Shown in pieces: positions 10,127-30,577 of a DNA stretch of 32,000 bases. A program made the translations under genes and the position numbers. Below the pieces are notes generated by a model. That model worked only from the letters and a program-made list of their open reading frames with translations, was not told where the DNA came from and made no database searches. How positions within the stretch are numbered: position 1 is the stretch's first letter; every line of letters begins with the position of its first letter. The DNA comes from Candidatus Saccharimonadota bacterium (lineage in GTDB: Bacteria > Patescibacteriota > Gracilibacteria > BD1-5 > UBA6164), in assembly GCA_004563595.2 (NCBI GenBank), contig CP042461.1, positions 1,170,001-1,202,000 on the forward strand, in the 5' to 3' direction.

Positions 10127-10175
10127 ACCCCTCCCCTTTCACTCCGTTTCAGGTACTCCCTTTGAAAAAGGGAGA
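10127..10175. other. GC-rich island with a perfect 8-bp hairpin in the holB to pilin-like spacer
   Basis: aaCCCCTCCCCTTTCACTCCGTTTCAGGTACTCCCTTTgaaAAAGGGAG contrasts with the AT-rich flanks. The CTCCCT..AGGGAG hairpin resembles those in the element at 28262..28396. Confidence 0.5.
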
Positions 10176-10205
10176 AATAAAATATGTATATAATTTTTCT
10201 TTTGC

Positions 10206-27349: not shown

Positions 27350-28051
27350 TTAAGCTCTTATTCAAATATTTCTTACATATTTTTTAGATATATTTTTAAG
27401 TTGCTCCAACTCCTGCATCTGGAAGCTTTTTCAAGTAAAATCTTTTTTTAATGTATTTCCAGATCTATAGTTTTGAAGAAAATAATTTTGTGCTCATTCT
27501 ATATTTTTTGCAATATTTTCTATATCTTCTTCTGTATGAATTCATTTAATAACTGTGGTTCTAAATTCATAAGCTATTTTTGAATTTAGTAATATTTTTA
27601 CTGATTTTTTATATTCTTCTTCACTCTCATTCACTCATACAATTTCATGCAATTTTCAAAATGGATTTTTCATATCCATTGCTACATAATCTAATAGATT
27701 GTTATCTAATAATTTTTGTAATACTTCTGGATCTCTTCCATTGGTATCAAGCTTCACTAAGAATCACATATCTTTTATTTTTTTACAAAATATATAAAGA
27801 TCTTTCTGCAAAGTTGGCTCACCTCAACAAATAGAAACTCATTCTAAAAGTCCTTTTCTTTTTTCTAAAAATGCAAGAAATGCTTTCTCAAAAATCAAAG
27901 ATTTTAAATTTTTTTTTAAAAACTCAGGAAGTACAAACTCTGGATTATGGCAAAAATCACACCTGAAATTGCATCCAGGTGTGAAAATGATACATGAGAC
28001 TTTCCCAGGAAAATCTATTAATGAAAACTTCGTTATTCAAGAAATGAGCAT
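27350..28051 (-). CDS. nrdG: anaerobic ribonucleoside-triphosphate reductase activating protein (radical SAM)
   Basis: ATG 28051..28049, TAA 27352..27350. Motifs: SLIDFPGKVSCIIFTPGCNFRCDFCHNPE (CxxxCxxC), GVSICGGEPTL, VKLDTNG. Confidence 0.9.
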
Positions 28052-28057
28052 GATTTT

Positions 28058-28237
28058 TTAGTTATATATGTTATTGAAATTATCATTTGATTTGAAATAA
28101 TTTCTACTATAAAATTCTGCTTTTTTTCAAATATTAAAACTCGAAACTGGTCTATGATATCCCATAACTCTTGTGTAAATTTCACATTTAGTTCTTTCTA
28201 CTTCTTGACCTTCTTTTGTTATAAATATTGCTGACAT
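28058..28237 (-). CDS. nrdD: stand-alone NrdD C-terminal glycyl-radical segment (59 codons)
   Basis: ATG 28237..28235, TAA 28060..28058. Product: MSAIFITKEGQEVERTKCEIYTRVMGYHRPVSSFNIGKKAEFYSRNYF. RVMGY..N.GK..E is the NrdD radical-Gly signature. It is in the same reading frame as the main nrdD ORF. Confidence 0.7.
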
Positions 28238-28261
28238 GGTTGTTTTTATTAGTTGTTAAAA

Positions 28262-28396
28262 TTTAAGCTCCCTCTGTCCTAACGGACATCTCCCTCCATG
28301 AGGGAGAACAATAAGATCCCCTTCTTGGAGGGGGATGCCTGAAAGGCAGGGGGAGTTGCAGTTCCTTCCTCTTTACACCCTCACCTTCCCTAATTC
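28262..28396. other. GC-rich multi-hairpin element embedded in the nrdD interruption
   Basis: This GC-rich block has four adjacent hairpins. They are 28275-79/28284-88, 28290-96/28300-06, 28316-24/28328-36 and 28336-39/28345-48. A long-range helix, 28268-76/28347-55, encloses them. Two G-U pairs form only in the plus-strand RNA. Confidence 0.6.
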
Positions 28397-30577
28397 CTTC
28401 ATTTTTTCTGCATCATCTGTATACTTTTCTCTAAATTTTAGATCATATTTATCTCACGTATATCCTATTTTTTCATCACATTTTGGACAATAATCATGTT
28501 CTCAAGTGATATACCCATGAGTAGGACATATAGAGAATGTGGGTGAAACTGTAATATATGGAAGTTGATAGGTTCCTATTACATTTCTGACAAAGTTTTT
28601 ACATGACTGACTATCTGTTAATCTTTCTCACATATACAAATGAAGAACTGTCCCTCAAGTATATTTACATTGAAGTTCATTTTGCTGATCTAGTGCTTCA
28701 AAAGGATCATCCGTAAATCCTACTGGGAGCTGTGAGGAGTTGGTGTAATATGGTGCTTCAGTAGTTCCTGATTGAATAATATTTGGCATTTGCTTCTTAT
28801 CTTCACGAGCAAATCTATAAGTTGTCCCTTCTGCTGGTGTTGCTTCAAGATTATACATATTTCCAGTTTCTTCTTGAAATTCTTTGAGAGTATCCCTCAT
28901 ATAATCTAGAATTTCAGTTGAAAACTCTTTTCCCCATTTACTCGCAACATTTTCTTTCCCTTTTGTAAAATTAAGAATCGCTTCATTCATACCATTTAAT
29001 CAGATGGTAGAAAAATGATTTCTAAAACTTCTTAAATATCTATATGTATATGGATATAATCCAGAATTTAACCATTTTGTGATTGTTTTTCTTTTAAGTT
29101 CAAGTGAGATTTTTGCTTGTTCCATTAAGTGTTCCACTTGTGTTTTAAATCCTTCTTTATCTCAAGCAAAAGTATATCAGATACGAGCTAGGTTCAGAGT
29201 CACCACTCCAATACTTCCAGTCATTTCTGCTGAACCAAAAAGTCCATTTCATCTTTTCTCAAGTTGTGAGAGGTCAAGTTGTAATCTACAACACATAGAT
29301 CTTACCGCTCCTGGTTTATATGCATCTGGATTTTCTACTGATTCATATTCTCCATCTTCTTTTTGTACTCTTTTGAACTGAGATCATACAAAGTTTTGGA
29401 AGTATGGTAATCCGTATTTAGCTGTCATTTCAAATAAAGCATTAATATCTGGGTCATCCCATGGGAAATCTTCTGTGATATTATATGTTGGAATTGGGAA
29501 TGTGAATACTCTTCCTTTTCTATCTCATTTTACATATACATCAATAAGTGCTCTGTTTATAATCCTCATCTCAGGTTCTAAATCACCATATTTTTTCTTA
29601 TAGTGCCCTTGTTCAGTTCCTCCAAGGAATAATGATTTTTCTTTGAGGTCATCTGGAACGGTCCAATCAAGAGTTATATTTGTAAATGGAGTTTGTGTCC
29701 CCCATCTACTTGGTACATTTAACCCAAAAATGAAATTTTGCATTTGTTGATAGACATATTTATATGTTTTATCATCAATATAGTTTTGTTTTTCTTTTTC
29801 AGTTTTAAAGCTTGCATTTGTTTCTTGTAATTCCTGAATTGTTTCTTCTTTATATTTATGAACATATGGAGCAAGGTAAGTATCAAAAGATGAAAATGCT
29901 TGTGCTCATGCCCATTCATTTTGAAGGGTTCAAAGGAAGTTTATCATTTGATTTACTGCAGCTTGTAGGTTCTTTGCTGGGCCTGAATCGATTCTATTAT
30001 CACTCCCATTAAATCATTCTTCAAGTAACGCTCTCAAACTCCACCCAGCACAATATCCACAAAACATATCAAGATCATGGATATGCATATCTCAGTTTCT
30101 ATGTAGGTTTCAAACTTCAGCTGGGTATATGTGAGAGAGCCAATAGTTCGCTGTTACTTTTCATGATAGGTTTAATATCATTCAACCCAATGAATACCCA
30201 GAGTTTGCATTTGCATTTACTCTCCAGTCTGATTTATCAAGGTATTCTTCCATACTTTGCCCTACTTCTATCACGACATTTCTATCTGATCTTTGTTCTG
30301 ATCTTTTTTCTCTATATACGATATACTTTTTTACTACTTCATCATGTCATTCTTTTATAAGTGCTTCTTCTACAGCATCTTGTATAAGTTCAACTGATGG
30401 GATTTCATTCCCTACTTCTGCCTCTATTAGAGCTATAGCAATATTTGTAATGGTTTTTACGGATTCAAAATTATCTCATCCAGCTGCTTTAATCGACTGA
30501 ACTAATGCTTCTTCAATTTTTGTTCTATCAAAAGATATAATAGCTCAATTCCTTTTTTTTACTTTGTATATAGGCAT
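28373..30577 (-). CDS. nrdD: anaerobic ribonucleoside-triphosphate reductase (class III), main body ending after the Zn ribbon
   Basis: ATG 30577..30575; the frame links track ORFs 29525..29743 and 28655..28990 through TGA codons to TAA 28375..28373 (735 codons). It has an N-terminal ATP-cone (VKKRNGAIISFDRTKI). Other motifs: HIHDLDMF, SMCCRLQL, GSIGVVTLNLARIG, EATPAEG, PYYTNSSQLP, GGTVLHLY, PTFSICPTHGYITGEHDYCPKC. Confidence 0.9.

What the first reader, a model, noticed from the sequence alone, without database searches (positions are those of the whole stretch)
28262..28396. GC-rich multi-branch RNA fold whose wobble pairs favour the strand antisense to nrdD
Seen: in an otherwise AT-rich window this block is GC-rich and folds on paper into a compact junction. 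A closing helix, CUCCCUCUG (28268-76) with CAGGGGGAG (28347-55), encloses four hairpins. They are UGUCC-UAAC-GGACA, CUCCCUC-CAU-GAGGGAG, AUCCCCUUC-UUG-GAGGGGGAU and UGCC-UGAAA-GGCA. The closing helix overlaps the first and last hairpins by 2 nt, so the ends compete. Two pairs (T28273 with G28350, and T28322 with G28330) are G-U wobbles in the plus-strand transcript. In the nrdD-sense transcript they would be C-A mismatches. A weak candidate promoter, TGACAT, 19 nt, TAAAAT (28233-28263), would start a plus-strand RNA right at the first stem. A CU-rich tail (28361-28400) follows and ends in a T-run at 28402-28407. Inference: the element may function as RNA on the strand opposite to the gene it interrupts, as a cis-antisense or selfish structured RNA. 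Alternatively it is a DNA-level palindromic mobile element. No match to tRNA, SRP RNA, the hammerhead core or the cobalamin B12 box was seen by eye.
Basis: inference. Interest (0 to 1): 0.7.

Follow-up and report, generated by a model that had tools for sequence, protein, structure and literature searches.

The report
Mobile GC-rich palindromic repeat beside nrdD
The GC-rich block is one copy of a small, hairpin-forming repeat that is scattered through Gracilibacteria genomes and landed just after the nrdD stop codon; it is not an antisense RNA gene, but its relatives in four phyla sit next to genes for an uncharacterised nuclease (DUF559), which hints at what moves them.

Summary
The helices, wobble pairs and GC island are real; it is the only GC island in 32 kb. 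The context was misread. The genome (Ca. Gracilibacteria 28_42_T64) reads TGA as Gly. In all relatives nrdD is natively two ORFs: 734 aa, plus about 59 aa carrying the glycyl-radical motif. The block is a roughly 110-nt insertion into the normally 25-37-nt spacer between them and is absent from seven relatives.

A metagenome scan and a covariance model found 19 further copies in 16 fetched loci, all AT-rich Gracilibacteria-like contigs, some sampling the same site twice. Each has two inverted GC-rich units, an AT-rich spacer of roughly 8-100 nt, and A/T flanks, as in a REPIN. Stem transitions keep G·T only on the window's plus strand, so the element does have a polarity. That strand is the mRNA-sense strand at most other sites, and no promoter, terminator or Rfam match supports an antisense sRNA here.

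Unexpectedly, related doublets flank DUF559 (Vsr-fold nuclease) genes in 14 of 15 loci across four phyla, much as REPs flank RAYT genes.

Verdict: a new palindromic mobile-repeat family. The DUF559 link is the interesting lead.

The parts
28268..28356 (+). Core of the repeat element in its own '+' (E+) orientation: two inverted GC-rich units around a short AT-rich spacer
   Evidence: Covariance model R1 gives 105 bits, E = 8e-23 on the + strand, against 61 bits on the - strand. It aligns with the other family copies.
28262..28372 (.). Block inserted relative to related Gracilibacteria. It starts directly after the nrdD stop codon.
   Evidence: Alignment of the junction with L001 and L081-L086 shows a gap of about 110 nt in all seven relatives. 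Their spacers are 25-37 nt.
28268..28276 (+). 5' arm of the closing helix (terminal inverted repeat), CTCCCTCTG
   Evidence: Pairs with 28347-55. It is invariant in 10 aligned copies, including the T.G pair. The L103 variant loses one C.G pair on both arms.
28347..28355 (+). 3' arm of the closing helix, CAGGGGGAG
28275..28288 (+). Hairpin H1 (TGTCC-TAAC-GGACA)
   Evidence: Replaced by GTCAG-CAAAA-CTGAC (L091a), GTCAA-CAAAG-TTGAC (L091b), CCCC-TTCG-GGGG (L103) and TGCCC-TGCC-GGGCA (Sinorhizobium). Pairing is kept each time.
28290..28306 (+). Hairpin H2 (CTCCCTC-CAT-GAGGGAG)
   Evidence: The L103 copies read CTTCCCTT-TCT-AAGGGAAG, with three pairs changed on both sides.
28308..28315 (+). Short AT-rich spacer between the two units. 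Other copies have roughly 26-100 nt here.
   Evidence: The spacer varies in length and sequence among copies.
28316..28336 (+). Hairpin H3 (ATCCCCTTC-TTG-GAGGGGGAT). T28322 is a C in most copies.
   Evidence: L103 changes the last pair from C.G to T.A.
28336..28348 (+). Hairpin H4 (TGCC-TGAAA-GGCA)
   Evidence: It is missing in L097 and carries a T.G in L091b.
28373..30577 (-). nrdD large ORF (734 aa; ATP-cone plus NRDD domains), stop TAA at 28375-73
   Evidence: 100% identical to P0001 from Ca. Gracilibacteria bacterium 28_42_T64. Pfam NRDD E = 1e-166. NCBIfam NF006126.
28058..28237 (-). Small ORF (59 aa) encoding the detached NrdD C-terminus with the glycyl-radical motif RVMGY
   Evidence: Pfam NRDD profile positions 531-562. 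NF006126 positions 649-683. Aligns to T. maritima NrdD residues 611-643. Called as a separate 53-63-aa gene in relatives.
27350..28051 (-). nrdG activase (radical SAM)
   Evidence: TIGR02495 NrdG2, E = 7e-64.
28376..28400 (-). Not part of the repeat.
   Evidence: Codon-by-codon translation. The family consensus ends at ...GGGGGAGTT.

Best explanation
The block is a solo copy of a non-autonomous, GC-rich palindromic repeat family of Gracilibacteria, with the architecture of a REPIN (REP doublet forming a hairpin).

Architecture (shown). It has two inverted units of about 40 nt. Each unit carries one arm of a closing helix, a short hairpin and an 8-bp CTCCC/GGGAG hairpin. The units are separated by an AT-rich spacer of variable length.

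Insertion (shown). This copy sits immediately after the nrdD stop codon. It lies in the short spacer that natively separates the 734-aa NrdD ORF from the 59-aa ORF encoding the glycyl-radical C-terminus.

Spread (inferred). The family spreads at the DNA level, through a strand-specific single-stranded hairpin form of the E+ strand, using an enzyme supplied in trans. The best candidate is a DUF559/YcjD-type Vsr-fold endonuclease, whose gene is flanked by such doublets in every related genome inspected; the window's own genome encodes a homolog (P0122).

Effect on nrdD (inferred). In this window the element points opposite to nrdD. It is passively co-transcribed as its weaker reverse complement (about -51 kcal/mol) between the two cistrons. 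At most it modulates mRNA stability or translational coupling. It is dispensable, because close relatives lack it.
For: Family and dispersal.
- The metagenome scan found 11 copies on 9 AT-rich contigs (22-29% GC) with unrelated flanks.
- Model R1 found more copies in L091, L097, L099-L103.
- Neighbouring genes differ between sites: gatA|fmt, glycosyltransferase|membrane protein, DUF2130|DUF559, Impact_N|YgjP.

Insertion.
- Seven relatives with NrdD 76-82% identical have no insert and 25-37-nt spacers.

REPIN-like architecture.
- The left half is roughly the reverse complement of the right half, loops included, so the MFE fold is one long hairpin.
- The spacer varies in both length and sequence, and copies are flanked by AA...TT.
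- This matches the published REPIN description (PMC3337134).

Structure under constraint.
- 98.4% of cells pair in the multi-hairpin model, and its covariation score beats 500 of 500 shuffles.
- The L103, L091 and Sinorhizobium copies show compensatory swaps in H1, H2, H3 and the closing helix.
- At the orthologous DUF2130|DUF559 site the GC modules are 93-97% identical among the L089, L095, L097 and L101 copies wherever both carry the module. The flanking coding DNA is 73-87% identical and the spacer 24-74%.

Polarity.
- 6-7 G.T pairs and no C.A pairs on E+.

DUF559 link.
- Doublets lie next to DUF559 genes in 14 of 15 loci from four phyla.
- R1 hits the Sinorhizobium doublet at E = 6e-11.
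- The E. coli doublet at ycjD has a median of only 4 places per genome.
- Hairpin cluster density is 1.86 per kb around DUF559 genes against 0.20 per kb in controls.
Against: - Only one strong copy lies in the 32-kb window, and the rest of this genome could not be scanned. Multi-copy status in this particular genome is therefore unproven.
- No target-site duplication is evident, and no transposase or RAYT was found in any held locus.
- The units lack the GTAG/CGTC head typical of RAYT-type REPs.
- High conservation of the GC modules, retention at an orthologous site and the compensatory changes would fit a selected cellular function as well as a selfish element.
- The DUF559 role rests on adjacency alone.
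Confidence: 0.8

Rival explanations
1. The family is a selected cis-acting RNA module in mRNAs. It would act as an intercistronic stabiliser, processing site or attenuator, as some REP/BIME elements do in E. coli. It would work mainly in the E+ (sense) orientation just downstream of stop codons. The nrdD copy would then be a reversed, perhaps weaker, instance.
For: - Most copies are sense-oriented and start 2-16 nt after the upstream stop codon.
- Compensatory changes occur, and wobble is retained only on E+.
- The GC modules are better conserved than the neighbouring coding DNA at an orthologous site.
- S. meliloti intergenic repeats are transcribed, and REP/BIME elements affect attenuation and mRNA stability (PMC3738161).
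Against: - The orientation bias is not significant (8 against 4, p = 0.39).
- L103 carries both of its copies reversed at the same orthologous site.
- T-tracts after the element are no more frequent than expected once its own terminal TT is discounted (7 of 14, p = 0.29).
- Close relatives manage without the element at nrdD.
- Copies also enter coding 3' ends: L096 and E. coli ycjD.
Confidence: 0.13
2. One reading: a discrete structured RNA transcribed from the plus strand, antisense to the nrdD operon, acting as a cis-antisense regulator or selfish RNA.
For: - The plus-strand fold is 6.5-7.5 kcal/mol more stable than the minus-strand fold.
- The family-wide wobble asymmetry favours this strand.
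Against: - The proposed promoter has a 19-nt spacer and fails the scan. Promoter-like sites occur at the shuffle level.
- No terminator adjoins the structure. The T-run lies 45 nt downstream, inside nrdD coding sequence.
- No Rfam match reaches a gathering score.
- The element is not conserved at this locus.
- Elsewhere the same strand is usually mRNA-sense, so the asymmetry is a property of the repeat.
Confidence: 0.04
3. The element is an intron, a ribosome-bypass ('hop') element or another recoding signal that rejoins the two in-frame halves of nrdD into one polypeptide.
For: - The large ORF and the small ORF are in the same frame. The insert between the stop and the downstream F-stop codons is 111 nt, a multiple of three.
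Against: - The split exists without the element in all relatives.
- In other lineages the two ORFs are in different frames.
- The small ORF has its own ATG and is called as a separate gene.
- Two in-frame TAA stops flank the insert.
- No group I or group II intron signal in Rfam.
Confidence: 0.01

Closest known systems
REPINs (REP doublets forming hairpins) and their RAYT transposases (Bertels & Rainey 2011; PMC3337134, PMC3116915)
   Same: - Two inverted palindrome-bearing units.
- A spacer that varies in length and sequence.
- Highly conserved units.
- A's and T's at the ends.
- A long hairpin possible in ssDNA or RNA.
- Extragenic and dispersed.
- A single-copy gene flanked by copies of the repeat.
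   Different: - The units lack the GTAG/CGTC head of most REPs (PMC3733652 abstract).
- Each unit contains two hairpins rather than one.
- The flanked single-copy gene is a DUF559 PD-(D/E)XK (Vsr-fold) nuclease, not a Y1 (HUH) RAYT.
- No RAYT was seen, and presence of one elsewhere in the genome was not testable.
- The host is a 29%-GC CPR bacterium using genetic code 25.
Bacterial MITEs such as Correia elements, RUP, ERIC and Rickettsia palindromic elements (review PMC10969869)
   Same: - About 90-175 bp and non-coding.
- Terminal inverted repeat of 11 nt (AACTCCCTCTG / CAGGGGGAGTT).
- Inserted beside or into gene ends and co-transcribed.
- Can contribute codons to the host ORF (L096 here, and ycjD in E. 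coli).
   Different: - No consistent target-site duplication.
- No parent IS with matching ends identified.
- Internal local hairpins are conserved through compensatory change, which terminal-repeat recognition alone does not require.
Rhizobiales dispersed intergenic repeat (774 places in 176 plasmid or chromid records). It may correspond to one of the catalogued RIME/MOTIF/Sm-repeat families of S. meliloti, but that was not verified.
   Same: - The left unit (closing arm, H1 and H2) is about 85% identical over 46 nt.
- The Sinorhizobium copy is a full inverted doublet that the Gracilibacteria model recognises at E = 6e-11.
- It also lies next to a DUF559 gene.
   Different: - The host is high-GC.
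- The two units are near-perfect reverse complements, without the T.G pair in the closing helix.
- Spacer content differs.
REP/BIME-type intercistronic mRNA stabilisers and attenuators of E. coli
   Same: A GC-rich hairpin between cistrons of an operon, co-transcribed with them.
   Different: No functional data exist here, and the nrdD copy is absent from close relatives.

Membership tests
REPIN / REP-RAYT system | Two REP-like palindromic units in inverted orientation separated by a variable spacer and able to form one hairpin | tested here: met
   Alignments and folds of 14 copies. The spacer ranges from roughly 8 to 100 nt and no two are alike.
REPIN / REP-RAYT system | Many dispersed, mostly extragenic copies within one genome | tested here: inconclusive
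   Two copies per short contig occur in L091, L093, L095 and L103. Only one strong copy lies in this 32-kb window, and the rest of the 1.34-Mb genome could not be scanned.
REPIN / REP-RAYT system | Cognate RAYT (Y1/HUH transposase) gene, single copy, flanked by the repeats | not testable with these tools
No Y1 transposase lies among the flanking genes examined. Instead a DUF559 nuclease gene is flanked by the repeats.
REPIN / REP-RAYT system | GTAG or CGTC tetranucleotide at one end of each REP (true of most REPs per the PMC3733652 abstract) | tested here: not met
   The units begin AACTCCCTCTG and end CAGGGGGAGTT. There is no GTAG or CGTC at the ends.
MITE | Terminal inverted repeats | tested here: met
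   11-nt arms, invariant in 10 copies.
MITE | Target-site duplication | tested here: inconclusive
   TAAA occurs at both junctions of the window copy, but the flanks of the other copies show no consistent duplication.
MITE | Autonomous parent IS with the same ends | not tested
cis-antisense or small RNA gene on the + strand | Own promoter and terminator delimiting a discrete transcript | tested here: not met
   The promoter spacer is 19 nt and fails the scan. The only terminator-like site in the element lies on the minus strand, and such sites occur at chance level (2 found against 1.4 expected).
cis-antisense or small RNA gene on the + strand | Conservation at the same locus in relatives, or membership of a curated RNA family | tested here: not met
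   Absent from seven relatives. Rfam gives only sub-threshold miRNA-like hairpin hits. ARAGORN finds nothing.
Intron, intein or translational-bypass element interrupting nrdD | The host gene is contiguous where the element is absent | tested here: not met
   nrdD is split into a roughly 734-aa ORF and a 53-63-aa ORF in relatives that lack the element. In other phyla the two ORFs are often in different frames.
Intrinsic terminator | Compact GC hairpin followed directly by a U-tract | tested here: not met
   In the window copy GGGGGAG is followed by TTGCAGTTCC. Across copies, T-richness after the element's own TT is at the expected level.

The most novel reading that the evidence does not exclude
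This repeat family and its relatives in Rhizobiales, E. coli (at ycjD), Neisseria, Photobacterium, Azospirillum, Sphingomonas and cyanobacteria may be the non-autonomous partners of DUF559/YcjD-type Vsr-fold endonucleases. That would be a second, RAYT-independent REPIN-like system spanning CPR bacteria, Proteobacteria and Cyanobacteria, and it would give the large DUF559 family a function.
Probability: 0.35. Interest if true: 0.8.

Novelty: new variant of a known kind. Interest (0 to 1): 0.55.

Why it matters
For this window, the finding removes a false lead. nrdD is not disrupted and there is no evidence for an antisense regulator. Annotators should expect a two-ORF NrdD with a mobile repeat in the spacer.

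More broadly, three points matter.
1. Small, reduced, 25-29%-GC CPR genomes maintain a GC-rich palindromic repeat whose hairpins evolve by compensatory change. One unit of it is recognisably shared with a Rhizobiales repeat.
2. Repeats of this type sit next to DUF559 genes in 14 of 15 loci across four phyla. That is the signature that led from REPs to RAYT transposases.
3. If the link is functional, it assigns a role to a widespread domain of unknown function. It can be tested directly in E. coli, with ycjD and a repeat present at about four places per genome.

Tried and rejected
- **Rfam.** Permissive thresholds on the window region, eight family contigs and the Rhizobiales locus gave only sub-threshold miRNA-like hairpin hits or nothing.
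- **tRNA/tmRNA.** ARAGORN found none.
- **Phage and viral searches.** Phage BLAST and two viral-contig pattern scans gave no match.
- **Intron, bypass or recoding.** Rejected because the split nrdD predates the element.
- **Terminator and promoter readings.** Not supported.
- **DUF559 as mobile cargo bracketed by two copies.** Rejected because the gene sits in conserved synteny (DUF2130, DUF559, Impact_N, YgjP) in at least five genomes.
- **T.G in the closing helix as a Vsr-type recognition feature.** Dropped because the Sinorhizobium doublet pairs perfectly at that position.
- **The GC-rich nrdD tail (28376-28397) as part of the insert.** Considered because it resembles the CACCCTCACC-type outer arms. 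Rejected because it aligns codon for codon with the native tail in L086.
- **Fetching the DUF559 locus of this same genome (P0122).** Failed; the gene is not on record.
- **Literature searches.** Searches for the repeat's sequence string returned only unrelated primer hits. None of the 25 papers in the library that mention DUF559 has it in the title or abstract, and none of the titles concerns repeats.
- **Long hairpin versus junction.** Thermodynamics favours the long hairpin and covariation favours the local hairpins. Both folds are possible because the two halves are inverted repeats.

Full report
**Context**

The window is 29% GC. Its ORFs are fragmented under table 11 but become long when TGA is read through: 15,251 against 2,864 codons in ORFs of at least 100 aa.

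The nrdD product is 100% identical to P0001 from Candidatus Gracilibacteria bacterium 28_42_T64, which lies on a 1.34-Mb contig. TGA encodes Gly (code 25). It falls at the conserved Gly of NxGK in the C-terminal motif and at a Gly that aligns with Gly in T. maritima NrdD.

On the minus strand the order is:
- nrdD large ORF, 30577-28373, 734 aa;
- the GC-rich block;
- a 59-aa ORF, 28237-28058, carrying RVMGY;
- nrdG, 28051-27350.

**The observation**

The block is the only GC island in 32 kb, reaching 56% GC in 80 nt against a mean of 29% and sd of 6%. Its plus strand folds far better than shuffles: -58.7 kcal/mol, z = -4.05. The minus strand is less exceptional: -52.1 kcal/mol, z = -1.57.

The four-hairpin junction is not the MFE. 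One long imperfect hairpin is 12 kcal/mol better on the plus strand and 5 kcal/mol better on the minus strand. The proposed promoter has a 19-nt spacer and is not picked up by the consensus scan. That scan finds no excess of promoter-like or terminator-like sites over shuffles.

**nrdD is not interrupted**

The best 120 NrdD homologs are mostly from Gracilibacteria and Absconditabacteria. Nearly all are 722-746 aa (most are 734) and cover about 93% of a fused query. They end shortly after a conserved protein extension, CPKCDEEIGYxGxKFDxETRxxYTDDxxKM.

The missing 7% is the glycyl-radical segment, which is encoded by a separate small ORF downstream. Pfam and NCBIfam place the large ORF up to profile positions 529/562 and 652/684. 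They place the small ORF at positions 531-562 and 649-683.

The same two-ORF arrangement occurs in Pseudomonas, Flavobacterium, Sulfuricurvum and other CPR lineages, often with the two ORFs in different frames. In five close relatives (L081-L083, L085 and L001) the spacer between the stop and the ATG is 24-37 nt, and in four of them annotators call the small ORF as a separate gene. L084's uncalled ORF aligns the same way.

Aligning the junction shows that the window has about 110 extra nucleotides (28372 to 28262) directly after TAA. They are absent from all seven relatives.

**It is a dispersed repeat**

One metagenome scan with a 24-base specified pattern from the 3' half returned nine AT-rich contigs (22-29% GC) carrying 11 copies. 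The copies share the ends AACTCCCTCTG...CAGGGGGAGTT and the four GC hairpins. They differ completely in flanks and in an AT-rich centre that ranges from roughly 8 to 45 nt.

A covariance model built on ten copies (R1) scores the window copy at 105 bits. It found further copies in L091, L097, L099-L103.

Neighbouring genes are ordinary and differ by site:
- gatA|fmt;
- glycosyltransferase|membrane protein;
- DUF2130|DUF559;
- Impact_N|YgjP;
- a HemN-like gene.

In L096 the upstream ORF reads 18 codons into the element. About 8 independent sites have the element's plus strand (E+) in mRNA sense, starting 2-16 nt after a stop codon. Four sites, including the window, are reversed. The bias is not significant (p = 0.39).

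**Structure**

It has two pairs changed on both sides and a covariation score above all 500 shuffles. The long-hairpin alternative pairs in 94% of cells, has no compensatory change and carries one mismatch in every copy.

More diverged copies decide the matter:
- L103 changes H2 from TCTCCCTC/GAGGGAGA to CTTCCCTT/AAGGGAAG, with three double changes.
- L103 changes the last pair of H3 from C.G to T.A.
- L103 replaces H1 with CCCC-TTCG-GGGG.
- L103 deletes one C.G pair from both arms of the closing helix.
- L091a and L091b carry two further H1 variants.
- Sinorhizobium has TGCCC-TGCC-GGGCA as H1.

The MFE is nevertheless a long hairpin in most copies, because the right half is roughly the reverse complement of the left half, loops included. 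This arrangement is what Bertels and Rainey call a REPIN: two inverted palindrome-bearing units, a variable spacer and A/T flanks (PMC3337134).

**Polarity**

All one-sided stem changes are C-to-T changes on E+ that leave a G.T pair. They occur in the closing helix, in H3 of the window and L095 copies, in H2 of L088, in H4 of L091b, in H3 of L094, in H3 of L103b and in the closing helix of L103a. None gives C.A, so the count is 6-7 to 0, p about 0.01.

E+ is the more stable strand in 11 of 14 copies. It fits a single-stranded DNA top strand or sense-strand RNA, and does not point to antisense transcription of nrdD.

**Conservation**

At the orthologous DUF2130|DUF559 site the element is present in at least five different organisms (L089, L095, L097, L101, L103). 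Among the L089, L095, L097 and L101 copies, the GC modules are 93-97% identical wherever both copies carry the module. Flanking coding DNA is 73-87% identical and the spacer only 24-74%. L103 carries its own variant twice, about 95% alike, in reversed orientation.

This pattern, genome-specific variants and units better conserved than coding sequence, is typical of repeat populations that are copied or homogenised within a genome. It would equally fit a selected function.

**Relatives outside the CPR, and DUF559**

A BLAST of the window element against plasmids gave weak hits only in Rhizobiales (best E = 2e-3). The matched sequence reproduces the closing arm, H1 and H2 with a compensatory difference in H2. 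It is itself a dispersed repeat, with 774 places in 176 records.

In Gracilibacteria the element lies 25-30 nt upstream of a DUF559 gene (Pfam E about 1e-25). In L091, L095 and L103 copies lie on both sides of that gene. The gene is resident and syntenic, not cargo, and the window's own genome encodes a homolog (P0122).

I therefore tested other DUF559 genes.
- **Sinorhizobium.** A full inverted doublet lies 57 nt after the gene. R1 scores it at E = 6e-11.
- **Azospirillum, N. gonorrhoeae, E. coli (ycjD), Photobacterium, Sphingomonas.** All have CCCTCCCC-loop-GGGGAGGG doublets beside the gene.
- **Cyanobacteria.** Pseudanabaena and Picosynechococcus PCC 7002 have CCCCTAGCCCC-type doublets beside the gene. 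Synechocystis B12 has none.

That makes 14 of 15 loci in four phyla.

Controls support the association. The E. coli doublet overlaps the ycjD stop codon, yet has a median of only four places per genome in 5,148 genomes. Chance adjacency is therefore about 1e-4. C-rich-arm hairpin clusters occur at 1.86 per kb around the six proteobacterial DUF559 genes, against 0.20 per kb in 298 kb of control loci. The probability that all six loci have at least two clusters is about 1e-8.

The closest solved structure to the Gracilibacteria DUF559 protein is 3HRL, an N. gonorrhoeae endonuclease-like protein. None of the 25 papers in the held library that mention DUF559 has it in the title or abstract, and none of the titles concerns repeats. 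That library is incomplete, so prior description elsewhere cannot be excluded.

**Verdict**

*Shown:*
- The block is a copy of a dispersed, structurally constrained, REPIN-like palindromic repeat.
- It is inserted after the nrdD stop codon, in a native intercistronic spacer.
- Its orientation is opposite to that of most other copies.

*Inferred:*
- It spreads at the DNA level through a strand-specific hairpin form.
- It is passively co-transcribed with nrdD.
- Its partner enzyme may be the DUF559 nuclease.

*Not supported:*
- An antisense sRNA gene.
- An intron or ribosome-bypass element.
- An intrinsic terminator.

Noticed in passing
window 28058-30577 (minus strand); also L001-L080 and L081-L085: NrdD of this subfamily (NCBIfam NF006126) is encoded as two ORFs: a large chain of about 734 aa, and a separate 53-63-aa chain carrying the glycyl-radical motif RVMGY. 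This holds across Gracilibacteria and Absconditabacteria. It also holds in Pseudomonas, Flavobacterium and other CPR bacteria, often with the two ORFs in different frames. A detachable radical-bearing tail recalls the GrcA/YfiD 'spare part' of pyruvate formate-lyase. I found no description of it in the papers searched.
   Followed up: partly
L089, L091, L095, L097, L101, L103, L105-L110, L112, L113: DUF559 (Vsr-fold nuclease; ycjD in E. coli) genes are flanked by GC-rich palindromic doublets in 14 of 15 loci from four phyla. Several doublets share an outer CCCTCACCC(C/T)AACCC / GGGTTAGGGTGAGGG or CCCCTAGCCCC motif. The pattern resembles RAYT genes flanked by REPs.
   Followed up: partly
L108 1000-1280 (E. 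coli ycjD 3' end): The last residues of E. coli YcjD (...LSPSPQPSP-stop) are encoded by the adjacent repeat. That repeat occurs at a median of 4 places per genome in 5,148 of 5,426 complete E. coli genomes.
   Followed up: partly
L096 3451-3528: A different GC-rich palindrome (-53 kcal/mol) lies in frame inside a glycosyltransferase ORF and adds roughly 27 residues (NPPPSPLHSKEGEEYNSPPARGELEGG). This resembles the way Rickettsia palindromic elements sit inside genes. Its CCCACCCCCTAGCCCCCTCC arm resembles the Photobacterium and cyanobacterial doublets.
   Followed up: no
window 10127-10185: An intergenic stretch, AACCCCTCCCC...ACTCCCTTT-GAAAA-AGGGAG, gives a weak hit to the family model (E = 0.011). 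It could be a decayed or related element, or simply a terminator hairpin.
   Followed up: partly
L086 2313-2340: In another Gracilibacterium (NrdD 80% identical) the contig ends 28 nt after the nrdD stop codon, in a C-rich string (ATCCCATCCTTGAATTCCTTCCC). The string resembles the 5' end of the L103-type variant. The same spacer may be occupied independently there, and the assembly may have broken on the repeat.
   Followed up: no
L010-L032 (Pseudomonas nrdD loci): The spacer between the nrdD large ORF and the small ORF is about 200-300 nt in Pseudomonas. Several of these loci contain multiple C-rich-arm hairpins (for example L012 and L032), so this spacer may be a recurrent landing site for palindromic repeats.
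   Followed up: no
L104 1156-1268 (Phyllobacterium plasmid): A second Rhizobiales GC-rich palindrome lies between two units of the matching repeat. It has the same layout as the Gracilibacteria element: closing helix CCCCACCC/GGGTGGGG, a short hairpin, a CCCTCCCC hairpin, a spacer, a CCCCC hairpin and another short hairpin. R1 scores it at E = 6e-4.
   Followed up: no
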